The notes under the pieces are model-generated. The model ran no database searches, was not told the DNA's origin, and was given only the letters and a program-made list of their open reading frames with translations. From assembly GCF_004010195.1 (NCBI RefSeq), contig NC_057741.1:1311584-1375583 (forward strand): a stretch of DNA of 64,000 nt, written 5' to 3'. The position numbers and the translations under genes are program-made. Positions 1,975-63,194 of this stretch are shown one piece after another. The DNA comes from Chiloscyllium plagiosum (Eukaryota). Position 1 is the stretch's first letter. Each line of letters begins with the position of its first letter.

Positions 1975-2340
1975 AAAAACCCTGCAGATGCAGGAATCCA
2001 AAGTAGACAAGCAGAAGAACACAGCGAGCCAGGCAGCTTCAAGAAATGAAGAAGTCAACGTTTCGGGTATTAACCCTTCTTCACGACTCGATATGGGGGT
2101 AGGGGGAGAAAAAGAAAGTGGGGCTGAGGAGAGTAGTGGAATGTTAAGGTAGTGATAGATGGACACAGATAGTGGGTATGACGTGGTTGGGCAATGGGAG
2201 GGATGAATCCGGTTGGTAGCTGGAAGGAAGAGGGTCAAGAGTGTGGTGCTGGAAAAGCACAGCAGGTCAGGCAACATCCAAAGAGCAGAAGAATCCTCAC
2301 TTTCTCCTAGCTGGAAGGAAGTGGAATGGAAGGGAGGAGG
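1975..2340 (-). mobile_element. Penelope-derived pLTR fragment with degenerate hammerhead, containing a nested 77-bp insertion (2231-2307)
   Basis: The minus strand reads AGTC-GTGAAGA-A-GGGT-TAAT-ACCC-GAAACGTT-GACT. The nested piece is flanked by TAGCTGGAAGGAAG at 2217-2230 and 2308-2321. Confidence 0.7.
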
Positions 2341-3250
2341 ATTGCTAGCTGTCTTCCTGTTTGTCCTATATAGTGTTTAGTGCAGTCCTTGCATGGTATT
2401 TTGTACACTACATTCGTCTTGCTCATGTTGGGTATCGGGTCCTTCTTTCTGGTGAGTTGTTGTCTGAGCGTGGCTGTTGGTTTGTGTGCCGTTATGAGTC
2501 CTAGGGGTCGCAGTAGTCTGGCTGTCAGTTCTGAGATGCTCCTGATGTATGGTAGTGTTGCTAGTCCTTTTGGTTGTGGTATGTCCTCGTTCCGTGGTCT
2601 TTCTCTTAGGCATCTGTTGATGAAGTTGAGCGGGTCTCCGTTTTTGGCGAATACCTTGTATAGGTGTTCCTCTTCTTCTTTTTGTAGTTCTGGTGTACTG
2701 CAGTGTGTTGTGGCCCTTTTGAATAGTGTCCTGATGCAGCTTCGTTTGTGTGTGTTGGGGTGGTTACTTCCATGGTTTAGGACTTGGTCTGTGTGTGTGG
2801 CTTTCCTGTATACCCTTGTACTGCGACCCCTAGGACTCATAACGGCACACAAACCAACAGCCACGCTCAGACAACAACTCACCAGAACGAAGGACCTGAT
2901 ACCCAACACTAGCAAGACGAATGTAGTGTACAAAATACCATGCAAGGACTGCACTAATCACTATATAGGACAAACAGGAAGACAGCTAGCAATCTGCATA
3001 CATGAACATCAACTAGCCACGAAACGACACGACCAGCTATCCTTGGTAGCCACACACGCAGACAACAAGCAACCACTACAGCGGACAGCTGAAACTGACA
3101 ACCGGAAGCGGCAGGGACAGACCACTATAAACACCGGAGGAAACATCAAAGGAGCGCTTCGCAGGAGGCTCCCAAGCACTGATGATGTCGCCTAGCCAGG
3201 GGACGAAACGTTTGCAACAAAAACTTCCAGCTCGGCGAACAGAACCACAG
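2341..3250. mobile_element. Penelope-like element (Poseidon-type), 5'-truncated with internal inversion
   Basis: The GIY-YIG endonuclease segment NVVYKIPCKDCT.HYIGQTGRQL occurs on both strands (minus 2341-2820, plus 2820-3075). A pLTR with a hammerhead follows at 3176-3215. Confidence 0.9.
3176..3215 (+). ncRNA. Minimal type I hammerhead ribozyme motif (Penelope pLTR)
   Basis: GCA-CTGATGA-T-GTCGCCT-AGCC-AGGGGAC-GAAA-CG-TT-TGC: intact core, stem I GCA/TGC, stem II, palindromic ACGT stem III. Confidence 0.8.
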
Positions 3251-4560
3251 TCCCATTTGCTAGCACTTAGCCCAAATCCGTCTAAACCTTTCCTATTCAT
3301 AGACCAATCCAGATGTTCTTTAAGTGTTGTAATTGTTCCAACCTCCACCATTTCTTCTGGCAACTCATTCCACCATGCAGCACACGTTGCTTGAAAAAGT
3401 TGCCCCTTAGGTCCCTTAGAAATCTTTCATCTCTCACCCTAAACTGACCTTATAAATCCTATACCCGATGCTCTGACCAATAAAGGAAAGCATACTAAAT
3501 GCCTTCTTCACTGTCATATTTACCTGTGACTCTACTTTCAAGGAACTTTGAAACTGCACTCCAAGGTCTCTTTGTTCAGCAACACTACCCATGACTTTGC
3601 CGTTAAGTGTATAAGTTCTGCACTATTTGCCTTTCCAAAATGCAGCACCTCACATTTATCTTAATTAAACACCATCTGCCACTCCTCAGCACATTGGCAC
3701 ATCTGATCAAGATCCAGTCGTACTCTGAGGTAACCCTCTTCACTGTCAACTACACTTCCAATTTTGGTGTCATCTGCAAACTTTTTAACTATACCTCTTA
3801 TGTTCACATCCAAATTGTTTATATAAATGAGGAAAAGCAGTGGACCCAGCATTGATCATTGTGGCAAACCACTGGTCATAGGCCTCCAGTCTGAAAAGAA
3901 ACTCTCCACCACCACCCTCTGTCTTCTACCTTCAAGTCAGTTCTGTATCTAAATAGTTAGTTCCCCCTGTATTCCATGAGATCTAACCTTGCTAACCAGT
4001 CCCCCATGAGGAACCTTGTTGAACACCTTACTGAAGTCCATATAGATCACATCCACCACTCTGCCCTCATTAATCCTCTTCATTACTTCTTCAAAAACCC
4101 AATCAAGTTTGTGAGACATGACTTCCCATGCACAAAGCCATGTTGACTATCGCTAATCAGTCCTTGCCTTTCCAAATACATTGTTAATCCTGTCCCTCAG
4201 GATACCCTCCAACACCTTGCCCACTACTGATGTCAGGCTGACCAGTCTATAGTTCCCTGGCTTTTCCTTATCACCTTTCTTAAATAGTAGCACCACCTTA
4301 GCCAACTTCCAATCTTCTGGCACCTCACCTGTAACTAACAATGATCCAAACATCTCAGCAAGGGGCCCAGCAATCACTTTTCTAACTTCCCACAGAGTCC
4401 CAGAGTACACCTGATGAGGTCCCGGGGATTTATCCACTTTAATGTATTTTAAGATATCCAGCACCTACTTCTCTGTAATATGGATATTTTTCAAGATGTA
4501 ACCATCTATTTCCCCATATTCTGTACCTTCCATGTCCTTCTCCACAGTAAACACTGATGC
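3251..4560 (-). mobile_element. CR1 LINE ORF2 (RT) fragments, internally deleted
   Basis: Translations [22 protein letters not shown] and LGPLLFLIYINNLD...KFADDTKIG. Confidence 0.9.
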
Positions 4561-4569
4561 TTTCTTACA

Positions 4570-5965
4570 AGATCTCTTACAACATAATCCCCTTGACATT
4601 CAATGGTATTGCCATCGTTGAATCCTCAACTATCAACAGCTTGGGGGGGGTTACTATTGACCAGAAACTAAACTAGACCTGCCAAATCAATACTGGGGCT
4701 ACAACAGCAAGTCAATGGTTGAAAAGTTTATGGCAAAACTCACACCTGTATTCATCAAAGCTCACCTATAAGGCACAAGTCAAGACTATGATGGAATACT
4801 CTACATTTTAGAGCCTGGGTGTCCTTGGAGAAGGAGCACGCGGTGTCGACCAACACCCTGGAGTTGTTCAGGGAGAGGTGGGCACCACAGGGAGTGGAGT
4901 GCATCATTTCTCCCTCCAATTCTATTTTGATTTAGTCCCTACCCTCCCCTTCACTGTTTTGATCACACAGCACTGCCCTTTGATGTGGAGGGCAGTGTTT
5001 GTCACTGGCCACCCGGGTGTTTTCCTATCTTCCTGGTGGTGGAAATTGAATAAAGATTGGTGCACTTTGTGTCTTCCACTGTGTCTCACACCTGCACACA
5101 CACACCATGAAAAAAAATAGGAGTGTTAAATTGCTGTCTCTTGTGTACAGCTGTTAATGTTTTTTGTAAACTGTTTTGTAACTTGTTTAATAAAATAAAA
5201 AAAATAAATAAATAGGAGTGTTCCCTCCCCCTCACTGTTTTGATAAAAAAAGAAAGAAAAAAAGAGTGTTTTCCTATCTTCCTGGTGGTGGAAATTGAAT
5301 AAAGATTGGTGCACTTTGTGTCTTTCACTGTGTCTCACACCTGCACACACACACCATGGGTGCTGGGGATAAAATAAAAAAAAATAAACAGGAGATTTAA
5401 ACAGGAGATTCTGTTTTGATCACACAGCACTGTCCCTTGATGTGAAGGGCAGTGTTTGTCATTGGCCACCCGGGTGTTTGCCTGATTTGAGTGTGTGTGT
5501 GTGTACAAGGACTCTCAAAAAAAAAATAAACAGGAGATAAAAAAAAGGAATACTCTACATTTACTTGGAATGAGTGCAATTCCAAAAATGCTCAAGTTGT
5601 TTAGCATCGTCCACGACAAAGTGTCACTTTATTGACACCCTCTGTCATACCTTTGATATTCAACCCCTCATCACCGACATTTCCCAACTACAAGAAGTAT
5701 TGCTACATCTCACCAGGGGTCCTCCTGCAGCATCTTCTCAAACCTGTGACCTCTACCGCCGAGAAGCAAAATGACAGCAGACGAAAGGGAACGCCACCAA
5801 TCCTCAAATCCCACGCCATCCTGACCGGGAAATATATCCCCACTTCTTGGGATTCGCACCCTCACAACATGAGGTGTACCTCCCTACACGGATTATAAGA
5901 GCTCACCACCACTTTCTCCAGGACAATTATTGATAGGCAATAAATGCTGGTCAGTAATGCCCAAG
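4570..5965 (+). mobile_element. Old LINE 3' portion (RTE-X/L2-like, family uncertain), interrupted by a Tx1 insertion
   Basis: A YKAQV..MEYS..W-like segment is split at the TSD. Related copies occur at about 21870-22340, 32480-33250 and 39650-40690 (minus). Confidence 0.55.
4809..5546 (+). mobile_element. 5'-truncated Tx1/L1-clade LINE with rearranged 3' UTR, poly-A and 16-bp TSD
   Basis: C-terminal peptide VSLEKEHAVSTNTLELFRERWAPQGVECIIS..., AATAAA and an A-tail. TSD GGAATACTCTACATTT at 4793-4808 and 5547-5562. Confidence 0.75.
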
Positions 5966-7551: not shown

Positions 7552-7660
7552 GTCTCGATTAGAGTGGTGCTGGAAAAGCACAGCAGGTCAGGCAGCATCC
7601 GAGGAGCAAGAAAATCTATGTTTCGGGCAAAAGCCTTTCATCAGGATCCCTTCATCAGGA
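7552..7660 (-). mobile_element. Short Penelope pLTR-derived insert with hammerhead-like motif
   Basis: Same family as 59531-59735; minus strand CTGATGAAAGGCTTTTGCCCGAAACAT. Confidence 0.7.
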
Positions 7661-11410: not shown

Positions 11411-11977
11411 CAGCCATTCCTCTCATTGACCACAGGTCATACCCTCTACCTGTCTTCCCCTATTCCCACTTCACCACCCTGCCCCAGCCAGGTCCCCCTG
11501 TACCCACCCCTAGTCCTGAAGAAGGGTTACACCTGAAATGCTGACTTCTCCACTTCCTGATACTGCCTGGCTTGCTGTATTCTTTCAGCCTCCTACCGGT
11601 CTGTGATTGAATAATAAAGCAGACTTGATGGGCTGAATGGCCTAATTTCTGCTCCTATGTCTTATGGCCTTATGGACTCTATTACTCATTGCTTCCTGCC
11701 ACTGAGCCAATTTGGGTCCAATTTGCCGAATTGCCTTGGATTCCATGGACTCTTAACTTCTAAACAGTGTGCTGTATAATACTTTGTCAAAAGTCTTACT
11801 GATGACCATTGTGTCTGATTGTAGATGTTGGACATTGTTGAGACAAGTCGCTGTGTAGTAGAAAATGAGGACTGCATATGCTAGAACACTACATTCTTGA
11901 CACAAGTCTCTGTGTAGAAGTAACACAGATCGAACACTGTGTATAGAAATAATCCAATAGTACTCAAGTTTCTTAGT

Positions 11978-25835: not shown

Positions 25836-25871
25836 ATCTAGTAATGTATTGCAGTCATTTCGGTAATTATT

Positions 25872-28799: not shown

Positions 28800-29051
<252 letters not shown>

Positions 29052-29609
29052 TAAACAGGCATGCCACTACACAAATTTTGCTAAATGTTTGATCAATTAG
29101 GTGGAAAAGAAAATCTGAAAGCACAAAGCACCCACTCCTCCCAGTGGTAATATAGACATTTTGTAACTTAGTTTTAAATGTATTTTAAATAACTTATTAA
29201 TTTTCCATTGCATTTGGTAATTCATAAAAGATACCTGTCTTCATCTTAGAGTCATAGAGATGTACAGCATGTCCTCTCTCTTAGCTGTTTTTGCATTTGT
29301 TTTTTTTTCCCTTTGGTGTATTACCATTGACAGGATTAAGGAAATCAAAACTAAGAGAAATGTGTTGATTCTTCCATGCTTGCTTTGTGCTTTGCAGACA
29401 AATGGAGGGGAACTTACAGGTGGTGCTGCTCCCAAGTCATACACCAGTTCCATTGTCTAACAGCTCTATGGGTGACTGTAAACCACGAGGTTAACTGCTT
29501 CAGGATGGTGGTAGTTCACCACCAACTTAAGGGCAATTAGACAACTTATAAATCTTGACCTTGCCTGTTACATTCATGTCTCCAGAATGAATAAAAATGA
29601 TAAAGACCA

Positions 29610-29845
29610 CATTTGCCATTCAAAGTTTCTATACCCGTGTGAACAGATTCAAGAACAGCTTCGACCTTGCTGTTATCAGATTTTGAATGGATCTCTTAAA
29701 CGTTAATTTTGATCTCTCTTTGTGCCATCTCAGCAACTGTAACATTGGATCCTGCACTCTGTTCTGTTACAGTGATGCACTTGTATAGTAAACCATGTAA
29801 GGCAATATTTTTCATTGTACCTTGGCACATATAACAGTGATAAAT
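29610..29845 (+). mobile_element. Rex1/Babar-like LINE 3' end
   Basis: Homologous to 47310-47552; AATAAA..AAATC tail. Confidence 0.6.
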
Positions 29846-30104
29846 TAATTCAAATCAAATCAATCTTCCATCCCAAAATCAGTTGTCAGCTTCTCCATAT
29901 TATGCTATACCATACCATGCATTAGTTCTCATTGTTGCCATTAGACCAGTTTTTAATTCTAGATTTTATTAAATTGAAATTTCAGAATCTGCTAACATGA
30001 GATTCAGTTCCCAAGGGTTCTGAATTACTGGTCAAGTGACATTGCCACTTCGCCACAAATTTCTCTTGCAGTAGTTTTGTGGATCATCTAATATTTTATT
30101 TTGT

Positions 30105-31540
30105 TGTGGAGTCAATAGCACTGAAACAAACTTTTGGGTTCAACTTCTCCATGCCGACCAAAGAAAGCTGGTCCCGCTTGCCTGCAATTAACCTATATGC
30201 AGCTAAATCTTTCCTATTCATGTACTTGTCCAAATGCTTTTTATATGTTGTATCTGCACCTACTACTTCCTCTGGCAGTCCATTCCATATGTATGAAAAC
30301 ATTGCCACTCAGGTCCCTTCTAAATTTTTCTCCTCTCACTTTAAAAATATGCTCACTAGTTTTCACATCCCCCAACCTAGGGAAAAGACCTTTGTGTTCA
30401 CCTCATCTATGACCCTCATGATTTTATAAATCTGTCTCCTACACTCCAGTGAAAAAAAACGTCCCAGCTTCCTCAGCCTTTCCTTATAACTCAGATCCTC
30501 TAATCCCAGCAACATAGAATATTACAGCGCAGCACAGGCCTTTCAGTCATCAATGTTGCGCCAACCTGTGAAATTAATCTGAGGCCCATCTAACCTACAC
30601 TGTTCCATTATTATCCATATGTATGTCCAGTGCCCATTTAAATGCCCTTAATGTGAGTCTACTACTGTTGCAGACAGGTCATTCCTGCCTGCACCTCCGT
30701 ATTCTCACTAACATTGCCCGTTTCCAATGTGAATACTGGCGAAAAGTATTAATTAAGCGCTTCCCCTATGTCCTCAGATTCCACACACAACTTTTTATTG
30801 CTATCTTTGATTGGCCCTAATCTTACTCTAATCGTTCTTTTAATCCTAATATACCTATATAAGGCCTTAGGTTTTTCCTTAATCCTATCCACAAACAACA
30901 ACTTATGTCCTCTCCTGGCTGTTTGCCCTCTCTTTACGTCAACCTGGTAAATGTTTTCTGAACCCTCTCCAGCTTAATAATATCCTCCCTCTAACAGGGC
31001 AATCAGAACTGCACACCATACTCCAGAAGAGGCCTCACCAATGTCCTGTACAACCTCAACATGATGTCACAACCGCCATACTCAACGGTCTGTGCAATGA
31101 AGTCAAGCTGTTAAACGCCTTCTTAACCATCCTGTCTGCCTGCAACACAACTTTCAAAGAACTATATCCCTGAGCCCCTAGGTCTCTCTGTTCGACAACA
31201 TTCCCCAAGACCTTACCATTAACTGTGTATTGCCCTTGTATTTTGCTAAAATGAACAATACCTTGAATTTATCCAAATTAAACTCCATCTACCACTCCTC
31301 AGCCCTTTGGCCCAATTGATCAAGATCCCTTTGTAACCTTATATAACCTTCTTCACTGTCACCTATACCATCAATTTTGGTGTCATCCACAAATTTATTA
31401 ACCATGCCTCCAAAATTCTTATCCAAGTGGTTTATATAACTGAGAAATAACAGTGGACCCAACGGCGATCTCTGCGGAATACTGCTGGTCGCAGGCCTCC
31501 AATGCCAAAAACAATCCTCCGCCACCACCCTCTGTTCCCT
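30105..31540 (-). mobile_element. CR1 LINE RT/3' region with nested CR1 pieces (about 30515-30945)
   Basis: PQRSPLGPLLFLSYINHLD...KFVDDTKI and WNGLPEEVV. Confidence 0.85.
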
Positions 31541-32037
31541 GATGTATACCTCAGTGGATAAAGAACAGTATCCCGTTTGTCATCTTGATTATTTTATTTA
31601 CCTGGAAAATTGCGATGGAGTGTTTTTTCCACAAAAAGCAGGACCACCCTATCAATCCATTTGCAAACATGAGCAAATATCGGAAAGTGTCATTAATAGT
31701 GTCATCAGGCAAAAACTAATTTTGCTCAGCATTTCTTGGTTTGGATTTTGTCAGGACCATTTAGCTTTGGATCTTAGTCCACCCCTACTCCAAGCATGGC
31801 CAAAAGAGATAAGTAGAAGATGTAACAGGAGAATAACTAATCTTGAAATCAAGGCAGCATTTGATTAAGTGTGTTGCCATTTTAAATTATTCTTTGTGTT
31901 TTTCAAATTTAGAGTACTCTTTTACACATCTGAACGTTCTTATCCCATCAGCAAATCATTCACGTTTTTTTAAAATTTATTAACCACTACCAATAAATTA
32001 CCCATGTATTCCATTTAATTAATTTGCATGCAATGCC

Positions 32038-33565: not shown

Positions 33566-33945
33566 TAGAGTCATAGAGATATACAGCACGGAAACAGACC
33601 CTTTGGTCCAACTTGTCCATGCCGACCAGATATCCCAACCCAATCTAGTCCCACCTGCTAGCACTTGGCCCATATCCCTCTAAACTCTTCCTATTCATAT
33701 AACCATCCAGATGCCTTTTAAAGCTTGCTACTGTACTAACCTCCACCACTTCCTCTGGTAGCTCATTACATACACATACCATCCTTTGTGTGAAAACCTT
33801 GCTCCTTAAGTCTCTTTTACATCTTTCCCTTCTCACCCTATACCTAAACCCTCCAGTTCTGAATTCACCCACCCCAGGCAAACGACTTTGTCTGTTTACC
33901 CTATCCATGCCCCTCATGATTTTATAAACCTCTATAAAAGCCTCC
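33566..33945 (-). mobile_element. CR1 LINE 3' end
   Basis: IEVYKIMRGMDRVN...NELPEEVVE; CTCTATGACTCTA tail. Confidence 0.88.
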
Positions 33946-34339
33946 GACACTCCAAGGAATTCATCAATGTTAGACATTGGAACATTCCAAAAGAAAATCT
34001 GCACCTCGAGCAAGGTACAGCAAAGAATTTTTAACTGTGGTATATCCAACTTTATAATTCGTATCTACCCACATTGCAAAACAGAGTAGTTAATGGAAGA
34101 GATAGGCAACAGGACCTGAAATCTTTGTGACTCCCTAAACTTTATTCCACTCTATGACACCATTGGGATGTTAAATTGTCATGACTTTTCAATAACACTG
34201 CCTGTGTAGGCAGTGGTGGCAAGAGGAACAGAAGCCTGCTGAGTGAGACTGCAGTTATTGTAACACAGTAAAAGTTCTGCAGTGGTCATTGCTGCCTACG
34301 AACCTGCAAGTGGGAGGATTCTCTGCATAACTTGACACC

Positions 34340-34592
34340 GTCCTGTCCCTCTTGATCCAGGAACTCCCCACCTACGTTCAGTACACCACCCACGCCCTCC
34401 ACCACCTACAGGACTTTCGTTTCCCCGGCTCCCAATGCCTCACCTTCATCATGGATATCCAATCCCTGTACACTTCCATCCGTCATGACTAAGGCCTCCA
34501 AGTTTCTTCCTCTCGCATCGACCCAACCAGTACCCTTCCACTGACACACTCATTTCATTGGCTGAACTGGTTCTCACCCTCAACAATTTCTG
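34340..34592 (+). mobile_element. Penelope-like RT fragment
   Basis: PLIQELPTYVQ.T, MDIQSLYTSI.H and LAELVLTLNNF motifs. Confidence 0.75.
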
Positions 34593-34780
34593 GTTTAATT
34601 TTGTTGCACAGTCCACTAGTAATCCTTCTTAGAATTCCGATGTACTGGGTGAACAGTCCTATATATGCAGTAAAACCTTAAATACTGTTTGTCCTTTCAC
34701 CATTTCTTCCTGTCTGTCAATGTCTCTTATGATTATTCTTATTATTTTCTATCTCCAGTTCCCTAGATGATTCCCTACAG

Positions 34781-35212
34781 GGTGGCATGGTGGCTCGTTG
34801 GTTCACACTGCTGCCTCACAGCGCCAGGGACCCGGGTTCAATTCCAACCTCGAGTGACTGTCTGTTTCCCCGTGTCAGCGTGGGTTTCCTCTGGGTGCTC
34901 TGATTTCGTCCCACAGTCCAAAAATATGCAGGTCAGGTGAATTGGCCGTACTAAATTGCCCATAGTATTAGGTGCATTAGTCAGTGGGAAATTAGAATTA
35001 GAAACCCTACAGTGTGGAAACAGGCCCTTCGGCCCAACAAGTCCACACCAACCCTCCGAAGAGTAACCCACACAGACCCGTTCCCCTACCCTATATTTAC
35101 CCCTGACTAATAACCTACACTATGGGCAATTGAGTCAGTTCACCTGACCTGCACATCTTTGGATTGTGCGAGGAAACCGGAGCATCCAGAGGTTGAGCTA
35201 CCGTGCCGCCCT
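34781..35212. mobile_element. Two HE1-type SINEs in opposite orientation (34781-34990 +, 34991-35212 -)
   Basis: SINE head and core on plus, followed by reverse-complement tail and core. Confidence 0.8.
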
Positions 35213-35233
35213 CGGTGGGTTCCCCTTCTTTAT

Positions 35234-35588
35234 GGGCAGCACGGTGGCACAGTGGTTAGCACTGCTGCCTCACAGAGCCAGAGACCCGGGTTCAATTCCC
35301 GCCTCGGGCGACTGACTGTGTGGAGTTTGCACATTCTCCCCGTGTCTGCGTGGGTTTCCTCCGGGTGCTCCGGTTTCCTCCCACAGTCCAAAGATGTGCA
35401 GGTTAGGTGAATTGGCCATGCTAAATTGCCCGTAGTGTTAGGTAAGGGGTAGATGTAGGGGTATGGTGGGTTGCGCTTCGGCGGGGCAGTGTGGACTTGT
35501 TGGGCCGAAGGGCCTGTTTCCACACTGGAAGTAATCTAATCTAATCTAAGTAATCTAATCTAATCATGATTAGAATCTAATCTAATCA
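35234..35588 (+). mobile_element. Full-length young HE1-type V-SINE
   Basis: A box TGGCACAGTGG, B box GGTTCAATTCC, V-domain, CR1-like 3' end and (TAATC)n tail. Confidence 0.92.
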
Positions 35589-36049
35589 TGTCTATTGTGT
35601 GCTCCTATTAGAGTGATGAAACCTTTTAAATGAATTTAAATGAACCTTTTAAATTAGCTTTTAAATGAATTTTCATGTCTTTCTATATCTGTTACATCTT
35701 ATTTTGCCACCAGTCTGTCATCTTTAATGGATAAAGTTGCTTTGCCTCTACTTTCCTTTCCTATCTTTTCTGTAAGTGTTACGCCAGCAATTTTGTCTCT
35801 TTAGCCATCATCACCATGTCCAGGCCTTCTGTACGAATTATGTGTTGAGATCATTTTAAAATATGTTGCATATATTATGCATCATTGATTTAATCTTTTT
35901 AATGGTATTTCTCCCTCTTTGCATGATCAATTTAATCTTTTTAATGATATTTCTCCCTTGCTGTCATTAGTAGTTATTATACCCTTGTGCTCTAAGACTT
36001 TATCTGATCTCTGACCATTACAGTTTAATTTCCACAGCAATTCCTGTAT

Positions 36050-37150
36050 TGTAAGCAATCTAAATAGTCATTGTTGCAGCTGTGCAGGGAACGTGGTGAA
36101 AGCACTCTTGAAACTGTTGTCATTCTCCCATTTACAATGTAACTACCCCAGTCTGTATTTGGATAGTCAAAGTTTCCCCTTATGATTACTCATAATATGT
36201 GCACCTTTGTAATTTTCTTCTAATTCTGCATCTTTCCAATGAGTTATAGGGCTGTAGATTGTACCAAGCAATGTAGTTAACCTTTTTTTGTTCCTTGGAT
36301 TTCTTAAGTCAGTGTTGGTCCTTGACACCTCTGGGACATATCACTCTCATACTCTTGCCAGCACTTGCAATTAGTACTGTCACCCTTGCCACGTTTCCTC
36401 TTTTTCTGTCTTTACGGAACAGCTTGTTTCCAGGGATACTTAGCACCCAGACCTTTCCTTCATTTAGCATATCTTTGTTATAACCACAATATTATATTTC
36501 CACATGGCAGTCTGTGCCTGTAGCTCACCAACCCTATTTAGCCACATTGCGCGTTCATTCACAGGCTTATAGTAATGTATTACTTCCAATGTACAGTGTG
36601 AACCTACCTAATAACTTACTATTTTTTCTTTATTACCTTTATCCAAAGCAGAAATATTCCCTTCCATCTCACTGCCTAGCATTCTAACTCCTTACTCTTC
36701 TCTTCTACTTGCATATGCTAGTCTCCCTGTGAATGTACTTTTAACACTCTTCAACCACAATAGTGGACCTCTTTGCAAGGTGAGGTGCAACCTGTCCCTT
36801 TTGTGCTGCTGGGACTGATGAGTACAACACCTTCTGGCTTGTTCCCCTCCTCCTGCAGAATATTCTGTATCCTTTCTGTGATATCCTTTTATTCTGGCAC
36901 CAAACAAAGCAATGCACCGCGTAGGACTCATTGTGACAGTTATGAAATTATCTATCTGAAATCTCCACAACAGTTCCATTTCTCAACTTTGCTGTTCTCA
37001 TCTGTTCGGTCTCTTTGCCAATAGTGTTATGGTCTGCACTGAATTCCTGCAAACCACTGTCACTCCTAGCAATATCCAAAGTTTAGCATCTGTTTCAGAG
37101 TGGTGCACACCCTGGAGATTGATAAGCATCCGACCTCTTCCTGATGGTCA
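36050..37150 (-). mobile_element. Old CR1 LINE ORF1/endonuclease remnant
   Basis: Degenerate DG.HL, DIVVITE.WL and G.GD-type motifs on minus. Confidence 0.5.
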
Positions 37151-37343
37151 AGCACAAGATAATTGAAATTTCATGAAGTTCCCATATTGTGCAGGAATTA
37201 CAAGCAATAAATCATGGATGCCCATCCAAGATGAAAACTATCTTTTTTAACATTCAACCCTGTTTGAAGTATTAATTTAAATGGTAACCTCTGTAGCTGT
37301 TTTGAGTTTGTAACCTTGTTAATTTGCATGCTATTTGCAGTAT

Positions 37344-37843
37344 NNNNNNNNNNNNNNNNNNNNNNNNNNNNNNNNNNNNNNNNNNNNNNNNNNNNNNNNN
37401 NNNNNNNNNNNNNNNNNNNNNNNNNNNNNNNNNNNNNNNNNNNNNNNNNNNNNNNNNNNNNNNNNNNNNNNNNNNNNNNNNNNNNNNNNNNNNNNNNNNN
37501 NNNNNNNNNNNNNNNNNNNNNNNNNNNNNNNNNNNNNNNNNNNNNNNNNNNNNNNNNNNNNNNNNNNNNNNNNNNNNNNNNNNNNNNNNNNNNNNNNNNN
37601 NNNNNNNNNNNNNNNNNNNNNNNNNNNNNNNNNNNNNNNNNNNNNNNNNNNNNNNNNNNNNNNNNNNNNNNNNNNNNNNNNNNNNNNNNNNNNNNNNNNN
37701 NNNNNNNNNNNNNNNNNNNNNNNNNNNNNNNNNNNNNNNNNNNNNNNNNNNNNNNNNNNNNNNNNNNNNNNNNNNNNNNNNNNNNNNNNNNNNNNNNNNN
37801 NNNNNNNNNNNNNNNNNNNNNNNNNNNNNNNNNNNNNNNNNNN
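37344..37843. other. Assembly gap (500 N)
   Basis: Run of N. Confidence 1.
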
Positions 37844-38367
37844 CTGTCCACTCTCCTTTTCACCCTATATTGATCTCACCTTAGTCTCTCAATCTGTCTT
37901 ACTTTTTCTGCATTTCTTGTACCTCCACAGTGTTCTTACTTCAGTGCTGGTCTTGCCATGTGATAAAATTAGTAAAAAAACAATTTGGACATTTCACAAG
38001 ATAAAGACACTAAGCATCAGAAGGCTTTACTAGGAGGACTGATTGGAACCTGAGACAAAGAAGTGGGTCTTATACAGCTTTTTGAATGAAGAGATGGTAA
38101 TGTAGTGGCAGATAGTTTTCAGGATGTACTTCTAGGTCATGTGCCTACAGCGATGGTGTAAAGAGAGGTAGATACACATAGCTGGAGAAAGGTGCAAGTG
38201 GATCAACATGGGAAAGGGGTTAGATAGTCAAGGTTTTAATAATAAAGGGCAAGACTTTTGAATATGAGAGTGGGAATTTTGAAATTTTTGGGGGCACTAT
38301 GCGAATGTAGATCAAAAAGATAGGTGAAATCTAATGTTGGTTTGTTATCTGGCAGAGTTTTTCATGA

Positions 38368-38619
<252 letters not shown>

Positions 38620-38862
38620 TAAAAGCACGTGCAATTGCAATTGCTAGCTAATGCTGGTCTTTATAATTAGACCATTTTGCACTATTGAATTTGGATGTTC
38701 TATTATTAATCAATAAATGGTGCCAAAACTTCAGGTGTGCAGCCCATATATGATTATATGCAGATATTACAGTCTGAATTACTTCCGACTTTGTGAAAAT
38801 AGTACCTTTCTGCCTGGGTCAAATGGAAAAAGCAGCCTTTCCACAGTTGGTGAATTAAACTT

Positions 38863-38953
38863 TTGGGCGGCACAGTGGTTAGCACTGCTGCCTCACAGCG
38901 CCAGAGACCCGGGTTCAATTCCCGCCTCAGGTGACTGACAGTGTGGAGTTTGC
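38863..38953 (+). mobile_element. 3'-truncated HE1 SINE head flanked by a 35-bp duplication
   Basis: AAAAGCAGCCTTTCCACAGTTGGTGAATTAAACTT at 38828-38862 and 38954-38988. Confidence 0.88.
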
Positions 38954-39649
38954 AAAAGCAGCCTTTCCACAGTTGGTGAATTAAACTTGCCACAAAAGTG
39001 AAATCTTATCAGTTCATAGAATCAGGAATTTTTCAGCTCCAAGTATACATCAACACAGTTATTTGACAAATTTGTGCTGGCTTTTACTTATTAGCCCATA
39101 TTTTTCTTAATGTATTCTTTCAACAATCATTGCTAAGCATTGTCCAGCAGCTTGTCTCCTTAAGTGTGCTTTGATCCTGAAAGGGTTGGAAACTACTGGT
39201 GGAGCTTTATTCGCTTGATCTATTTTTAGAGAGAAAATTTAATTCAGCACCTTCTGCTTGACCTTGTTTCTTTTTAAAACACATTCAGAGGACGAGCTAC
39301 CAGTCTGCAGGAACTTGATAGATGTAAATATCTCGAGTCCACTATAACTACTACAAAACTAAAAGGAAGAGTCATTGCACACAAAGCATTAACCCTCTTT
39401 ATCTCTCCACCGATATTGCCAGATGTACTGTGTTCTCCAGCACTTATTTGTTTTCACATCTTCAGCTGCAGTACTTAATTTTGATTTGCTTTAATAATTT
39501 GTTAAAATGCTTTCATGAAAAGATTTAACAAAATAGCACAGCATCCAGATAAACTCGTAAATTATTTCATTCATGATCTACGCAGGCCTGTGGAGAGATA
39601 ATACTATGGTGATTTAAAGTCAGGCTTCTTAAAAGACTGGACTGCTGCA

Positions 39650-40690
39650 GGCATTTTTGCTTTTTAATTCATTCATATGATGTGAGCAATTACAGATGGT
39701 TACCAGACCCTTAAAAAGGTGGTTATGAGGTGCCTTTTTAAACTTCTGCTGTTCTTGGTGGTACGTCCACAGTGCTATTAAGGAGAGAGTTCCTGGGCTT
39801 TGATTCAATGAAGGAATAGTGATATATTTGCAAGGTAGATGGTATGTGACTTGAACACAAATTTTGAGATGATGGTTTTCCCATATATCTACTGCCCTTG
39901 TCCTTCCAGACAGTGGAGCTCCTGGGTTAGAAGTAGAAGTCTGAGAAGCTTGGCTGCAATGCCTCTTGTGATGATACATATTGTTACTTTGGTTGTAGGA
40001 ATTGAAGGGTGTGCATGTGGAAAGGGGACTATTTTGTTTTAAGATTATGTCGAGCTTCTTGAGTGTTCTTGGAGCTGCATCCATCCAGGCAAATGCATGA
40101 CATTACACTCCTCACTCATGTCTTGTAGGTATTGAACAGGCAGTGAGTACTGTTACATAATCCCCAGACTCTGACCTGCTCTTTTAGCCAAAATACTCAC
40201 ATGACTGATCTAGTTTAATTTCTGGTTGATGATAATATCCAGACATTCAGCAATAACAATGCCATTATCTGTCAAGGGGCAATGGTTAGATTCCTTTTTG
40301 TTGGAGATGGTCATTGCTGGGCTCTTATGTGAAAAGTAACATTCATGTCACACTAAGATCAAACCTGTATGTTGTCCAGATCTTGTTGCATACGAATTGC
40401 TTCGGTGTCTGAACATTATACAATCATAAATAAATATCCCCCAGTTCTGACCACATAAAGGAGCAAAGGTCCTTGGTGAACCAACTGAAGTAAATCGAAG
40501 TGAGAGGGACTAAGATGATTGACTTCCAACAACCAAGACCATCATCCTTTGTGCTAAGTATGATTCCATTAATCAGGAAGTTTTCTCCCTGATTCTGGTT
40601 TTGCTAGGACTTTTGACATACATTGCAAAATGTCACCTCTCTACTGTAGTTCACATATTTTAATCATGTTTGGATCAAGGCTGTAAATAG
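39650..40690 (-). mobile_element. Old LINE 3' portion (same family as 4570-5965)
   Basis: MDAAPRTLKKLDII...FKKA.H.HL.KG. Confidence 0.65.
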
Positions 40691-43510
40691 GTCATTATAT
40701 TGTCATTTGGTGAGCCTTGGTTGACAAAACACTGCTTACAGAAGTTTATCTGATCTAAAGGGCATTGCACATAATGCTGAAAACATACAACAAGCAATGT
40801 AGGGGACACCAAATATTAGAAAACCCCCATCTACTTCCCAGCCAAGAGTTTTCATTTCTGAGTAGAAAAGCATGTAGTGACTCAATCTCATTGAAAGCAC
40901 AGAACAGATTAAATAACAAAAGGCCCAAGGAACAAAACTGGCAGAAAGTTATGCTGGATTTCATAAACTCATGATGTGATCTAAACAAAAAGCAGAATTT
41001 CCTGAGTTTAGTTGTATTGAAATGAAGAAAGGGCTTCATACCATAAATGAAATAGAAATTTGGCTGAAATATAATTATTTGGCTGAAATGTATTCCACTG
41101 AACTTCCTTCAACTTTCAAAGCAATTCAATAGCAACAAAGTTAAGGAGAAATGCAAGCAAAGCAGCAGAAATTGAATTGTCTACACCATGTAAGAGAATG
41201 TACAATAATAGACAATGAAAGCATCGACAATTAAATTGAAGCAGTTTGCCACACAGTACAGTGAACAGTTATCTCCTTCAAATTCAGGTTAGTATGTATG
41301 GACTGAAGTGATTCAGAAGGTATGGGTTTAAGCAAAATATCCGACCTCCCCAGTTTCTAAAAAATGAAGCCCAAACAACAATAAATGATATAACAGCTGG
41401 CAAGAATGCACATCCCAGAGACATGATTGAGAAAATTCCATCAATAACTAAATTACTGAAAGGAAGGAGAATGCCTAAAATCTCAAGGGGTTGAAGTAAT
41501 AGGTCCACCTACCTGACACAGATCTACAGGTGGAATGAAAATCCAATTTCTTTTATATAAACTGTAGATGTTTTGCATACAATATGACACAAAATACTAC
41601 AAAGAAGAGACAATGTGCGAAGATCCAAGATATTGCAAAGAAAAAAAAAATCACCTGCTATAGTAGGGATGGCACAAACAGGTATAAACAATAGATGTAT
41701 GTCATCAAGAATCTCTGCAAAACAAATACAGTAGATTAAAGACCTCCATTTCAAAACAGAACAGACCTTGGACTGGCAGGAAGATAGTCCAAAGCAACTG
41801 ACTTCAACCGAAGAAAATACCATTCCTTCGAGACCACAGGGAGAATTGTACCAAGTCCAGATCATCTGAATTCTGAACTTGGGCTTAGGGGGTCAGGGAT
41901 TTTGGAGGTGGGATTGGGGGAGCAGGATGGTAAAGAGTGGAATACATGTATAAACAAATATATGACCCTCATAAAATAAAATGAGGGAGCAAAGATTTTG
42001 GGAGTCTGTTATGGAGGATATATATGGGTCTGAAACAGTTCATTCTTGATTTTGCACATTAGACACCATTGTTATGTCATGGGGACTTTGAGCAGAGGAG
42101 AGAGGCAAAGACAGATCTGAGGCTATTGTGCTCTTAAAAGTCTCTAATAATGTAAGTCCTATTTGTGTAATCTGTTAGTAGTCTCAGTAATGCAATGGAC
42201 CGCCTTTCATTTAGTCAATTATGCTTTTCTAGTTAGACCAGAAGGCTGGCTATCTTCCCCCAACGCTATGTTAGTTAGGGATACACTCAACAGTGGGTAG
42301 ACAGAAGCACATACACAAATATAGAATGTGCTGATAAGAGCATAGCATATAAAAGCGAAATAAATAGGTACACGAGGAATTATCCAATTTTCCTTTGGCT
42401 TTTAACAGTTAGTCTGATGAAGTTGGAAACAGATAGTTGTAATATTGTTTTGGATATATTAAGGCACATCATTTAACGTGATTCTATACAATGATCAAGT
42501 TGTAGTTTTATGGCATGAAAAACTCATCAGGTCTGGCTGCATCTGTGGAGAGAGAAGAACAGTGATAACATTTTGAGCCCAGTATGACTTCACTGGACAT
42601 GAAACATTACCTGTTTTTCTGTGTCCACAAATGGTGAGTTTGTTTCAGATTTACAGTATGAGAAGTATTTGCTTTTGTTGGGTCTCTTTATTAGGTCTTG
42701 TGGCTAAACTGATTAAAGGATATGGGGAAAAAGTGGGAAGAGGGTACCAATTTGCATGATCAGCCATTATTATGTAGAATGATGGAGCAGGCTCAAAGGG
42801 CTGAATTGCCTACTCCATTTTTTTAGTTTAAAGAAATAAAAGATTTGTCTGGAGAAGAGATGATGAGCATTGTCAGAAAACAAAAATGAAAGTAAAACTG
42901 ATACCTATAAAGAGAAACAGTGGGGACAGAGTACAGTCTGAAATTCTTCAACTCAACAATGTGTTGTCTCGATGGCTTTAAGTGTGTAATCAAAAGACAA
43001 GGTGCTGTGCCTATCCTTCAAATATCATTAAGCTTTATTGTCCTTGGCTTCCTATAGTGTTCCAGAGTGATCGGTATGAGGTGGGGAATTGAAATAAGCC
43101 TCTTGAAGATCTGAGTCACACTTGTGGACTGTAAAGGGCATTCTGCAAAGTGGGAAAGCAGTCTGCACTTGATCTCTCCAAGGTAGAATAAACTGCAACG
43201 TGAACACTGACAACAGTATACTAAATTGAAAAAGTAGAGTAAATCTGTGTCATCTGGAAGGAGTGTTCGACAGTGAGGAAGGAGGTGGTCAAACGCAGGT
43301 GTTGCCCTGAGCCTGCATTGTTAAGGTGCCAAGGGAAGGAGTGTTAGTTGTGATTAAGGAGATTTCTAGGCTCTTAGGGAGGGAGCATTCCCTGCACAAT
43401 GCTGAAAAAGGAAGAGGAGTGAAGATGTATTTGGTGACATTGTGCATGGTTAGCCAAAATGACATTGATAATCTGTTGAATATGGAGTCTAGAGAGATGA
43501 AAGCTGATGA

Positions 43511-43663
<153 letters not shown>

Positions 43664-44844
43664 TAAGTCTTGATAGCTAACTGCGCACAGCTGATGTTAC
43701 CATTACTGGTCACTTTGATTTAAAGACTAGAACTCTAGCTGAACCATTTTTATTATGAGAGGATAGATGTATTCCAATAATGCAGGCCTCCTACTCTGGT
43801 GGTCATGCTGTAGCTTTTAATAATGCTGTTTGTTGCTTCAATCGGAGTAGAAAAAACTTGCATGAAGTATCTGATTGCAATTTGTATTTTATGCAATGAA
43901 TAGTCATAATTATCATTTAAGGGAAAGTATTGAGAAAACATTTGGTAATATCTATGATTGATTATTACATGAAAATGATTGTCTAAGGGTGTGTTGTTAC
44001 AATCTAGTTGGGGACCATTAACCTTTTTGTTTGAAGTAGACAAAGTTTGAAATCCCAGGGATTTGCTAAAAAAGTAAAGATTTCATAGTTTGCATAAACA
44101 ATACATTTACTATGCCAGGTTAGAAAAGTCAAATGAACTATATTGTATACACAACTTAGTCTTACACCCAGAATTAACACAAAGTGGGTTGACAGACTAC
44201 CTGTGGTCAGTACCCCACAGAGAACATAAAACATCACATGCAATCAAGATTGATCCCATTGATTTCACAGCAACCTACCCAGACATTAGTGAGATTGCAT
44301 TATGAAATCTTATTTAGAAGCTCTTGTCTCCTTCACAGGGATACGAAAACTTAACGTTCAAAGATCTACCCTCTTGAGTTTACTTAAACCTCGTAGTGCC
44401 CCAATGACTGCTCATGTTCTGCTAGTTCCATCTCTTTTCCCAAGACTGAGTTTCCCCAGGATTCCAAGGACTGCTTGCATGCATGTAATTACAGGCACAA
44501 TATCATTCTTTTTTCCAAAACAAAATACATTCATTAAGTTGCTGATGCCTCTGAATTTCTGTCTTGGCTCTCCTAAGCATATACTGTAACATGCATGCAA
44601 ACACACACACCAAGTAGGATCGCAAATGGACTCCCACTTTGCACTCTCTCAGGTCCTTTGATCATTTTCTTGTGCCAGTCTCCACCACACAGATGGATTA
44701 GTATTAGAATGGCCGAATCATATTTACATCACCATACCGTCCGGACTTGTGCATCGAAAATGATGGACAGGTTTTGAGAATCAGGAGATGAGTTAGCTAC
44801 AAGATTCATAGCCTCTGACCCCTCTTGTAGACACAATATTGATA

Positions 44845-46435: not shown

Positions 46436-46815
46436 ACATGGCATTCCAACCAGAACTCAATCAACAAACATATCGGTTTTGACCCCATCTACCACCCTCT
46501 GAGAAAAAGAACAGGAAATCACATCACGACAGGAACTGACATCACCAACCCAAAGAAACCTAAACACATAAATAGAAAGTGGTTCACTAACACCAGTGCT
46601 TCACCAGAGGTTCACTGATGATGTTGCCTAGTATGGTGACGAAACATCTGAAAATGAACCTTCCAGCTTCAGTGATTCCTGAAGAAGGGCTTATGCCCGA
46701 AACGTCGATACTCCTGTTCCTTGGATGCTACCTGACCAGCACCACATTTTTAAGCTCTGATCTCTAGCAACTGTAATCCTCACTTTCTCCTAGCTCAGTA
46801 AGCAAACTTACATCC
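46436..46815 (+). mobile_element. Poseidon-type pLTR with a Neptune-type pLTR (46675-46790) inserted in it; two hammerhead motifs
   Basis: TTCA-CTGATGA...GAAACATC-TGAA (46611-46652) and TTC-CTGAAGA-A-GGGC-TTAT-GCCC-GAAACGTC-GA (46676-46708). Confidence 0.8.
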
Positions 46816-47552
46816 ACAACAATCTCTCCCTCAAAGTTAGCAAAACGGAGGAGGTGGTCATCAACTTCAGGAAGCAGAGTGGAGGACATGCCCCTATCTG
46901 TATTAGTGGTGCTAAAGTGGAGGTGGTTGAGAGCTTCAAGTTTCTAGGAGTAAATATTACCAAAGGTCTATCCCGTTCTATCCACGTCAACACTACTGTC
47001 AAGAAAGCACACCAACACCACTATTTCCTCAGAAGGTTAACGAAATTCGGCTTGTCCACAATGGCTGTTAGCAATTTTTATAGATGCACCATAGAAAGCA
47101 TCCTATCTGGATGTGTCACAGCTTGGTATGGCAATTGTTCTGCCCAAGAGCACAATAAATTGGAGTTGTGAATGTAGCCCAGTCCAACATGAAAACCAGC
47201 CTTCCTTCTATTGACTCCATCTACACTTCTTGTTGCCTCAGAAAAGCAGCTAACATAATCAAAACTCCTACCACCCAGCTATACTATTTTCCATCAGGCA
47301 GAAGATACAAACATTTAAAAACACAGACCAACAAATATAAGAACAGCTATTCCCTGCTCTTATCAGATTTATGAATGGACCTCTTGTAAATTAGGGTTGA
47401 TCTTTCTATGTAGTTCTTTGCTGACGTAACACTATATTCTGCATACTGTTCCATTACCCTGATGTACTTATGTAAGGTATAATTTGTCTGGTTAGCACAC
47501 AAGACAATACTTTCCACTGTATCTTGGTACATGTGACAATAAGAAATCAAAT
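46816..47552 (+). mobile_element. Rex1/Babar-like LINE 3' end
   Basis: INFRKQ...VEVVESFKFLGVNIT...YFLRRL...FYRCTIESILSGCVTAWYG; PSGRRY; AAATC tail. Confidence 0.85.
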
Positions 47553-59530: not shown

Positions 59531-59735
59531 GCTGGAAATGTGTTGCTGGAAAAGCGCAGCAGGTCAGGCAGCATCCAGGGAACAGGAGAATCGACGTTTC
59601 GGAATTCCTGAAGAAGGCCTTATGCCCGAAACGTCGATTCTCCTGTTCCCTGGATGCTGCCTGACCTGCTGCGCTTTTCCAGCAACACATTTCCAGCTCT
59701 GATCTCCAGCATCTGCAGACCTCACTTTCTCCTCA
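59531..59735 (+). mobile_element. Young palindromic Penelope pLTR insert with hammerhead and TSD
   Basis: Perfect 72-bp inverted arms at 59531-59602 and 59626-59697; TSD AAGAGCCTATGGT(G) at 59518-59531 and 59736-59749. Confidence 0.92.
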
Positions 59736-60187
59736 AAGAGCCTATGGTGTTAGAGGCAGTATATTGGCATGAATAGAGAATTGGCTAATGGGTAGGAAAC
59801 AGCGAGTGGGGATAAGGGTTTCTTTTTCAATTTGCAACCTGTAATCAGCTGGGGTTCCACAGGGATCAGCACTGGTAATGTAACTGTTTACAATCTATAT
59901 TAATGACTTGTTCGAAGGAAGTGAATGTACCATAGTCAAATCTGCAGACAATGCAAAAACAGACAAGTTGCAAAGAGAATACAAACAATTTACAGAGAGA
60001 AATTGTTTAACTAAGTGGGCAAAAGGTTGGCAAATGGAATATAACGTGGGATAAAGTGAAGTTGTTCATTTAAGAAGGGAGCACAAAATTCCAGTATTAT
60101 TTAAATGGAGAAAAGCTGAACATAAAGAGACTTAGATGTTCTTGTACATGAATCACAAAGCTCACACACAGATCCAGCAGGTAAACA

Positions 60188-60399
60188 GTGTCGAGAGGGT
60201 GTTGCTGGAAAAGCACAGCAAGTCAGGCAGCAACCGAGGAGCAGAAGAATTGACGTTTCGGGCATAAGCTCTTCCTGATGAAGGGCTTATATCCGAAGCT
60301 TCGATTCTACTGCTCCTCAGATGCTGCCTGACCTGCTGTGCTTTTCCAGCAACACACTTTCAACTCTGATCTCCAGTACCTGCAGTCCTCACTTTCTCC
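60188..60399 (+). mobile_element. Older palindromic Penelope pLTR insert
   Basis: Inverted arms about 60190-60274 and 60279-60364; ends CCTCACTTTCTCC; diverged TSD [21 protein letters not shown]. Confidence 0.85.
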
Positions 60400-62216: not shown

Positions 62217-62335
62217 AGGCTCGTTCCTTGCAGTGACGGCAGGGTTATTGTATGGTTCTAGCTTTGTGCCTGTAATTTATATCAAGAACCAAGCTCTGAA
62301 GAACGAAACAGAATATAAAAATGCAAGCCAGTTCG
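62217..62335 (+). CDS. TMEM144: TMEM144 coding exon (last visible; C-terminal exons lie beyond the window)
   Basis: CTTTAG|; GSFLAVTAGLLYGSSFVPVIYIKNQALKNETEYKNASQF; G|GTAAGA; 119 nt. Confidence 0.96.
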
Positions 62336-62520
62336 GTAAGAATATTTGTAGATGCTTTTTTCCTGTCAATTCTCTGCTGAGGCAATGGCAGAAGAGCAGA
62401 GCAATTCTCACATAAGTTTGGCACTGCTACTTTTAATACAGGCATTAAATATAGGGGACTTCCAGTTTACACAACGGTTAAACTAAATATGCACCATATC
62501 TTCAGAAGAAAGTACATGAG

Positions 62521-62967
62521 GGTTATTTTAAGGTCTTAAAAGAAATTGAGTCCAGATGAAGGGCTCTTGCCCAAAACGTCAATTCTCCTGCTCGTCAGAT
62601 GCTGCCTGACCTGCTGTGCTTTTCCAGCACCACACTCTCAACTCTGATCTCCAGCATCTGCAGTTCTGACTTTCACCTTTATAGCAGTCAATCCGTACAA
62701 TACTTTTGACCTTTCTTTGCAAGGTCATCTGATCTCCTTTGCTTGGTCTAAAATGGTAAGGATGTTAGGCTGAAAACTCCAAGAAGGCGAAAGTGAAGAC
62801 TGCAGATGCTGGAGATCAGAGTCGAGAGTGTGGTGCTGGAAAAGCCTAGCCGGTCAGGCAGCATCCGAAGAGCAGGAGAATTGAAGTTTTGGCTAAAAGC
62901 CCTTCATCAGGACTCAATTTCTTTTAAAACCTTAAAATAGCCATTTTCCAGCACCACACTCTCAACT
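62521..62967. mobile_element. Tail-to-tail pair of Penelope pLTR inserts sharing about 30 bp of flank (inverted repeat, arms about 160 bp)
   Basis: 62521-62679 is approximately the reverse complement of 62784-62942; an extra inverted piece sits at 62944-62967. Confidence 0.85.
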
Positions 62968-63154
62968 GAAATCTCCCAAGTGCCATTCTGTATTGTTTCC
63001 TCAAATAAATTTACATCTGCACTTTATCTAAATATCACCCGGAGAGCATGTACATTTTACTCAAATATAATCCTCCTTAAAAGCTTATGAACATTGAGAG
63101 ATAGAAATAAAAAAGAATGTTGTGGTTCTGTTCGCCGAGCTGGGAATTTGTGTT

Positions 63155-63194
63155 GCAGACGTTTCGTCCCCTGTCTAGGTGACATCCTCAGTGC
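63155..63194 (-). ncRNA. Minimal type I hammerhead ribozyme motif, intact
   Basis: GCA-CTGAGGA-T-GTCACCT-AGAC-AGGGGAC-GAAA-CG-TC-TGC, with a GUC cleavage triplet. Confidence 0.83.

What the first reader, a model, noticed from the sequence alone, without database searches (positions are those of the whole stretch)
2052..63194. Two families of minimal hammerhead ribozymes scattered through the locus, with stem covariation
Seen: family A is CTGA(A/T)GA-A-GGGC-loop-GCCC-GAAACGT(C/T), at about 2052-2088(-), 7615-7646(-), 11512-11546(+), 12613-12647(-), 13139-13172(+), 46676-46708(+), 59605-59640(+), 60272-60305(+), 62548-62585(+) and 62880-62915(-). Family B is CTGA(T/G)GA-T-GTC..CCT-loop-AGG..GAC-GAAACGT(C/T), at 3176-3215(+), 21735-21775(+), 46611-46652(+) and 63155-63194(-). 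Stems covary between copies: stem II GGGC/GCCC versus GGGT/ACCC; stem I GCA/TGC versus TTCA/TGAA, and AGTC/GACT. Both families have one extra base after A9 and a 4-nt ACGT palindrome in place of stem III. Established: Penelope-like elements carry minimal type I hammerheads that cleave efficiently mainly as dimers. Inference: at about one motif per 5 kb this genome is very rich in them, and several lie in the sense strand of TMEM144 pre-mRNA.
Basis: partly seen in the sequence, partly recalled or inferred. Interest (0 to 1): 0.72.

Follow-up and report, generated by a model that had tools for sequence, protein, structure and literature searches.

The report
Hammerheads in Penelope retrotransposon end-stubs
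The scattered motifs are tiny self-cutting-RNA (hammerhead) sequences at the ends of two Penelope-type jumping-gene families that fill this genome; the copies here are mostly decaying leftovers that are unlikely to affect the host gene, but rare fusions elsewhere in the genome likely record that these ribozymes do cut in living cells.

Summary
All 14 motifs are real (strict scan 10 versus 0.67 shuffled). They are not free-standing ribozymes. They are the known minimal type I hammerheads in the end repeats of Penelope-like retrotransposons: family A Neptune/Nematis-type, family B Poseidon-type. In B the ORF's ATG and stop codon lie inside the motif. The genome holds at least 215,000 intact-core motifs, including a third family with an AGCT palindrome; this window is ordinary. 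Stems and palindrome covary between subfamilies, but single copies decay neutrally (core 6.0% versus flank 6.8%; catalytic G12 at CpG rate). Only 5 of 14 listed copies are intact, and neighbours are mostly inverted (62 of 93 pairs), so they cannot dimerise in cis. An effect on TMEM144 is unlikely. The scan found this kind before on other DNA of this genome and supplied one lead that I confirmed: 8 of 10 U6-Penelope fusions join exactly at the predicted scissile bond, in three families. That is indirect evidence of in vivo cleavage. Known kind, record abundance, one useful mechanistic clue.

The parts
2014..2088 (-). Family A (A3 subfamily, stem II GGGT/ACCC) end-stub; core broken (C3>G)
2231..2308 (-). 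Short family A insertion between 14-nt target duplications; its main arm starts at the first base after the predicted cut (2-nt microhomology)
   Evidence: sequence
2333..3253 (+). Family B (Poseidon-type) 5'-truncated insertion: inverted RT-thumb/EN arm 2333-2819(-), then EN and end repeat 2819-3253(+); intact hammerhead 3176-3215; ORF stop inside loop II
7563..7646 (-). Family A (A2) stub; core intact, palindrome and first stem II pair decayed
11506..11602 (+). Family A (A3) stub; U16.1 lost
11981..12445 (-).
12555..13271 (.). Family A insertion with inverted arms around a GIY-YIG fragment (12687-13043, -); intact hammerheads 12613-12647(-) and 13139-13172(+)
20243..21051 (+). Family B RT-thumb/EN fragment with an inverted tail piece
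21703..21847 (+). Family B (B4) stub; core intact, palindrome and first stem I pair decayed
46591..46820 (+). Family B (B4) end repeat with hammerhead 46611-46652 (palindrome decayed), interrupted by a family A insertion; in a TMEM144 intron, sense
46675..46790 (+). Family A (A1) stub nested in the B4 tail with an about 9-nt duplication; the only fully intact sense-strand motif among the listed TMEM144 intron copies
59531..59739 (.). Family A fold-back insertion (14-nt target duplication); hammerhead 59605-59640 has a stem II mismatch and is predicted to be locked in a -159 kcal/mol hairpin
60177..60399 (.). Family A fold-back insertion; core broken; -143 kcal/mol hairpin
62521..62942 (.). Two family A stubs in an old inverted duplication that includes flanking DNA; both have lost G12
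63118..63987 (-). Family B (B1) insertion: intact hammerhead 63155-63194(-), inverted tail 63292-63390(+), RT fragment 63571-63987(-) beyond an assembly gap
28935..43690 (+). Host gene TMEM144, three exon matches (28935-29039, 38449-38601, 43556-43690); gene continues beyond the window end; splice joint 38583/43562 seen in RNA

Best explanation
The motifs are minimal type I hammerheads in the terminal repeat of two Penelope-like retrotransposon families, left in the genome as 5'-truncated, neutrally decaying insertion stubs; in the RNA of active elements they likely cut weakly, as dimers paired through the ACGU palindrome and likely with help from the element's protein. Shown here: linkage to RT and GIY-YIG coding sequence, direct-repeat motif-ORF-motif copies, target duplications, inverted arms, two fixed tail ends, covariation between subfamilies, neutral decay within them, and U6 fusions at the predicted bond. 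Inferred: reverse transcription starts 65-125 nt downstream of the motif, so even the shortest insertion carries it, which explains the huge count; most insertions came from uncut RNA; a minority of RNAs were cut and the new 5' end was captured by U6. The copies in TMEM144 introns are likely passengers.
For: Family B: L073 and L075 hold motif-ORF-motif units 2,503 and 2,502 bp long with RVT_1 matches; ATG at A9-U-G10.1 in 67 of 68 B motifs and a stop in loop II in 62 of 68, the same start position as in the anole Poseidon element (PMC11167929). Family A: the motif lies about 165 nt upstream of an ORF start; GIY-YIG match and a C-X4-C-X2-C linker. Genome counts 131,309 + 34,813 + 49,650 against reversed-pattern controls of 132, 1,678 and 17. 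Stem I and the 15.2-16.2 pair were not in my descriptor, yet pairs 1 and 2 of stem I pair in 9 of 9 subfamily types and the palindrome switches ACGT to AGCT. Per-copy decay: core 71 of 1,180, flank 421 of 6,189 (p=0.34); G12 20 of 118 versus other CpG G 53 of 248 (p=0.40). B copies end at +65 or +104 to +110 from the ATG (22 of 26), and RNA reads leave the element at the same two places. Only 1 of 171 family A 5' boundaries lies at the cut, whereas 8 of 10 U6-PLE fusions do.
Against: No cleavage was measured. The double-hammerhead fold lies 9-21 kcal/mol above the best predicted dimer fold in all 9 units tested, and family A1 stem I is only 2 bp. One poly(A) single-cell run showed no pile-up of molecule ends at the cut, although that library type is poorly suited. 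The core and part of stem II were search criteria, so their conservation is partly circular, and related subfamilies inflate the shuffle test. In family B the motif also codes for protein, which constrains it independently. Clade names rest on the linker motif, not on a tree. No intact full-length family A copy was recovered.
Confidence: 0.88

Rival explanations
1. Host-adopted intronic ribozymes: some sense-strand copies cut TMEM144 pre-mRNA or otherwise regulate it, like the conserved intronic hammerheads of amniotes.
For: Five listed copies are in sense in TMEM144 introns; 46676 is intact; at genome scale some same-strand neighbours exist (18 of 93 pairs).
Against: 4 of the 5 are damaged or sequestered in hairpins. 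The neighbour 46611 belongs to the other family, so cross-copy stem I cannot pair (sequence), and its palindrome is decayed. Antisense copies are about as frequent in the same introns. No core-specific constraint across copies. Density is the genome norm (7 in the window, 65 in 772 kb).
Confidence: 0.05
2. The motif is a vestige or a protein-binding/translation signal that never cuts in this lineage; the U6 junctions mark a reverse-transcriptase stop or a transcription start.
For: Weak stem I and unfavourable dimer energies; cleavage was dispensable for insertion in vitro and no read ends were found at the site for the anole element (PMC11167929); 17 of 58 U6 junctions join near SINE starts, so U6 capture does not need a ribozyme.
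Against: Junctions fall on the same bond in three families whose sequences after the cut differ; a structural stop would be expected at the 3' edge of stem I, a few bases downstream (inference); covarying palindrome.
Confidence: 0.12
3. A separate non-autonomous family (retrozyme or SINE-like) that spreads by its own circular RNA.
For: Many copies are only 100-130 nt and start within 9 nt upstream of the core; animal retrozymes are reported to derive from PLE end repeats (bioRxiv 10.64898/2026.07.22.740005).
Against: No tandem arrays of the motif in the window; short copies are continuous with GIY-YIG/RT sequence in longer ones and share their tail ends; neighbours are mainly inverted.
Confidence: 0.07

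Closest known systems
Minimal hammerheads (min-HHR) in pLTRs of metazoan Penelope-like elements (Cervera and de la Pena 2014, PMC4209133; read parts 1-2 of 4, supplement file 2 part 2)
   Same: Type I, no real helix III, palindromic 15.2-16.2, extra base between 9 and 10.1, several consensus families per genome, mostly single truncated copies, pairs 100-700 bp apart on opposite strands.
   Different: At least 215,000 intact-core motifs here against about 4,000 (coelacanth) and 9,000 (Xenopus) there, with different descriptors; stem I of the commonest family is only 2 bp plus a mismatch; no cartilaginous fish term was found in the one supplement file searched.
PAc, Poseidon element of Anolis carolinensis (Frangieh et al. 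2024, PMC11167929; main text read whole)
   Same: ORF starts at the base of stem II; cut a short way into the ORF (28 nt here, 26 there); two 3' ends about 35-45 nt apart (the tail); genomic copies made from uncut RNA.
   Different: In family B the ORF stop also lies inside the motif, so the coding sequence covers the whole 2,503-nt unit; PAc was tested biochemically, these were not.
Neptune/Nematis-clade PLEs (Craig et al. 2021, PMC8557442; passages)
   Same: Family A has a C-terminal GIY-YIG with a CX2-5CxxC linker, inverted 5'-truncated arms and a tail.
   Different: Neptune versus Nematis not resolved; no tree was built.
U6/LINE-1 chimeric retro-pseudogenes (Moldovan et al. 2019, PMC6789731; passages)
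   Same: U6 3' end with its U tract joined to a retroelement RNA, then retrotransposed.
   Different: Here the junction is one fixed bond, the predicted ribozyme cut, and the partner is a PLE; ligation versus template jump is not resolved.

Membership tests
PLE minimal type I hammerhead | CUGANGA and GAAA..UH core around stem II, closed by stem I | tested here: met
   All subfamily consensus types; 9 of 14 listed copies; stem I only 2-4 bp
PLE minimal type I hammerhead | Extra base between 9 and 10.1; palindromic 15.1-16.1 | tested here: met
   ACGT and AGCT forms
PLE minimal type I hammerhead | Located in the terminal repeat of an RT + GIY-YIG element | tested here: met
PLE minimal type I hammerhead | Self-cleavage, as dimer or protein-assisted | not testable with these tools
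   Indirect only: 8 of 10 U6 fusions at the bond; no read-end signal in one unsuitable library
Penelope/Poseidon clade (family B) | Single ORF, RT then GIY-YIG, no CX2-5CxxC linker, direct end repeats | tested here: met
   L073 and L075 translations; RVT_1; GIY-YIG seen by motif, no Pfam hit for B
Penelope/Poseidon clade (family B) | RT phylogeny within the clade | not tested
   no reference RT set fetched
Neptune/Nematis clades (family A) | CX2-5CxxC linker before the GIY-YIG | tested here: met
   L052, L057 translations; GIY-YIG E=2e-4, just under cut-off
Neptune/Nematis clades (family A) | Complete motif-ORF-motif unit | tested here: inconclusive
   5' and 3' parts seen in different loci; long candidates contain assembly gaps
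Non-LTR retrozyme | Tandem repeat units each with a hammerhead, non-coding | tested here: not met
   no such arrays in the window; linked to ORFs; mostly inverted neighbours
Domesticated intronic hammerhead | Core conserved above neutral rate | tested here: not met
   pooled across copies; orthologous copies in other species not tested
Rfam hammerhead families | Score against the curated models | tested here: not met
   none listed at E<=10

The most novel reading that the evidence does not exclude
Penelope minimal hammerheads cut their RNA in the germ line, and the cut 5' end is open to cellular ligation, as recorded by U6 fusions at the scissile bond in three families. For family B, whose reading frame covers the whole repeat unit and whose start codon is severed by the cut, cutting would switch a linear RNA off, while ligation of a unit-length RNA into a circle would restore the full ORF and give a template for the tandem end repeats.
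Probability: 0.45. Interest if true: 0.7.

Novelty: new member of a known kind. Interest (0 to 1): 0.4.

Why it matters
What PLE hammerheads do is an open question: they cut poorly in vitro, are dispensable for insertion in the one reconstituted system, and have been suggested to be parasites of the element (PMC4209133, PMC11167929, PMC8557442). This genome offers over 215,000 copies, covarying subfamilies and a DNA record of junctions at the predicted bond, which makes in vivo cleavage and the circular-intermediate idea testable. For the TMEM144 locus itself the result is ordinary: transposon debris. It also warns that hammerhead searches in such genomes return mostly dead copies.

Tried and rejected
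Rfam scan: no hammerhead hit; the mir-3199/mir-680 hits at 59568-59660 are the fold-back insertion. PDB sequence search with a B protein: only two unrelated hits near E=0.01. Lunse et al. 2017 (dimer cleavage) was not held; I know it only from the review PMC6765202 (passages). Run search: no RNA holder listed; run X9 laid no reads, so it is no test. Read ends at the cut: none in X8, a poly(A) single-cell library, so uninformative. Extra G before short family A copies (cap-copy idea from earlier notes): 3 of 22 non-fold-back copies, not enriched; the set mixes old and long copies, so inconclusive, though 5' boundaries do cluster at -9 to -2 (50 of 131 A1 hits). A cis heterodimer of 46611 and 46676 was rejected because cross-copy stem I cannot pair. 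Dimer folding energies did not discriminate between families. Older subfamilies A4 and A5 did not form clusters of 3 or more and are absent from the covariation count (173 of 243 motifs used). Literature searches for prior reports: 1 paper, irrelevant mention; 0; 0; one 2026 preprint includes one chondrichthyan genome with retrozymes and PLEs (its supplements are closed and may bear on novelty, as may unsearched file 1 of PMC4209133).
Full report
Observation. All 14 stretches are present at the stated places, and a strict scan finds 10 motifs against 0.67 in shuffles. Copy by copy, 9 of 14 keep the catalytic core, 8 keep the ACGT palindrome, and 5 keep core, palindrome and stem II (3176, 12613, 13139, 46676, 63155). 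Similarity extends well beyond each motif, so each is part of a larger repeat.

What the repeats are. Translation of the flanks shows GIY-YIG endonuclease and reverse-transcriptase fragments beside both families. For family B, loci L073 and L075 hold motif-ORF-motif units of 2,503 and 2,502 bp with RVT_1 matches and no zinc-finger linker, the Penelope/Poseidon layout described in PMC8557442 (passages). The extra base after A9 is the U of the start codon: ATG at this place in 67 of 68 B motifs, and a stop in loop II in 62 of 68. The unit plus the 11-nt overlap is 2,514 nt, a whole number of codons, so the frame would cover the entire unit (inference). The anole Poseidon element starts its ORF at the same position (PMC11167929, main text). 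For family A the motif lies about 165 nt upstream of an ORF start in 6 of 23 loci picked for the N-terminus, and the protein has a C-X4-C-X2-C linker before the GIY-YIG, the mark of Neptune and Nematis. Window copies show PLE anatomy: inverted arms, target duplications of 14 nt (2231-2308, 59531-59739) and about 9 nt (46675-46790, nested in a B tail), and two fixed 3' ends. RNA reads also leave the B element at those two ends. The host looks like a cartilaginous fish; this rests on a recalled SINE type and on earlier notes, not on a call.

Abundance. Exact 31- and 33-mers occur 45,844 and 8,253 times. Intact-core patterns give 131,309 (13-nt spacer, ACGT), 34,813 (14-24 nt, ACGT) and 49,650 (14 nt, AGCT) against reversed controls of 132, 1,678 and 17: at least 215,000, one per 16.5 kb. 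The AGCT family C was not found in this window. In 772 kb sampled from 16 chromosomes there are 65 intact-core motifs against 7 in the window and 217 homologous pieces, so the window is typical.

Selection. Between subfamilies the structure is kept while letters change: 67 of 72 cells paired in 9 types, 40.4 +/- 6.5 when shuffled (173 of 243 motifs clustered). Stem I and the palindrome were not search criteria, yet stem I pairs 1 and 2 hold in 9 of 9 types in two and three different pair forms, and ACGT switches to AGCT. Relatedness inflates this test, and the core was a search criterion. Within subfamilies there is no constraint: core 71 of 1,180 changed, flanks 421 of 6,189 (p=0.34); G12, which sits in a CpG, 20 of 118 against 53 of 248 for other CpG guanines (p=0.40) (40 flank columns that differ between subfamilies were left out; with them in, the core looks slightly better conserved). 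Selection acted on active lineages, not on inserted copies.

Can the copies work where they lie? A double hammerhead needs two same-strand copies with compatible stem I. Of 93 neighbour pairs within 1.5 kb, 62 are inverted with tails outward, 13 inverted the other way and 18 direct. TMEM144 is on the + strand (splice joint 38583/43562). Of its five listed sense copies, 60272 and 62548 are broken, 59605 has a stem II mismatch inside a -159 kcal/mol fold-back, 46611 has lost the palindrome, and 46676 is intact but alone. The predicted dimer fold is 9-21 kcal/mol above the best fold in all 9 units tested. Published min-HHRs show no monomer cleavage and low dimer cleavage (PMC4209133), and the anole motif cuts only with its protein. 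A host role is unlikely.

Do they cut at all? Genomic copies rarely start at the cut (1 of 171 family A boundaries), so most came from uncut RNA, as in the anole system. Earlier notes of this scan suggested U6 fusions at the cut, and I tested this. Among 58 distinct U6 3'-end junctions (one locus counted on both arms; not a complete census), 10 loci join PLE sequence. Eight join the first base after the predicted cut: L268, L285, L306, L325 (family A, four different tails), L307, L336, L337 (family C, two tails) and L292 (family B, within one T). Two join the endonuclease region. Several have the inverted-arm form, so the chimera was copied by PLE machinery (inference). Hammerhead cleavage leaves a 5'-OH, and RtcB joins U6 to 5'-OH RNAs (PMC6789731, passages). 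But 17 junctions lie near SINE starts, so a template jump at any RNA 5' end is also possible. Either route implies an RNA end at the scissile bond. One poly(A) library showed no ends there, which is a weak test.

Verdict. Searches for hammerheads in sharks or for U6-Penelope fusions returned nothing relevant; a 2026 preprint covers one chondrichthyan genome (part 1 of 5 and passages). The locus itself is ordinary; the U6 record is the part worth following.

Noticed in passing
genome-wide; e.g. L232-L246: A third hammerhead family (C) with an AGCT palindrome and 5-bp stem II, 49,650 intact-core copies; its coding sequence was not identified.
   Followed up: partly
L268, L285, L292, L306, L307, L325, L336, L337: U6 snRNA copies joined to PLE tails at the predicted cut; several with inverted arms.
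   Followed up: yes
L266, L273, L283, L286, L288-L291, L298, L301, L302, L304, L311 and others: 17 of 58 U6 junctions join a tRNA-type SINE, most at or near its start; L269 joins a tRNA-like sequence.
   Followed up: no
window 616-1752 (-): FAM198/GASK1B first coding exon (Pfam FAM198, E=7e-27), divergent from TMEM144.
   Followed up: partly
window 6689-6760 (-) and 13880-13950 (-): Two tRNA genes (Rfam 60 and 67 bits) between GASK1B and TMEM144.
   Followed up: no
window 62521-62942: Inverted duplication (89%) that includes about 30 nt of non-element flank, unlike the usual PLE inverted arms.
   Followed up: no
G000:C1:121724343-121756927: A second TMEM144-family gene on another chromosome.
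   Followed up: no
window 15565-16549 (+) and 34469-34600 (-): Decayed family A-type RT fragments without a nearby hammerhead.
   Followed up: no
window 59568-59660: PLE fold-back insertions score against miRNA families (mir-3199, 50 bits); such hairpins in introns could feed editing or small-RNA pathways.
   Followed up: no
L192-L206: Older A-like subfamilies with stem II GGGTC/GACCC versus GAGTC/GACTC, a further compensated pair.
   Followed up: partly
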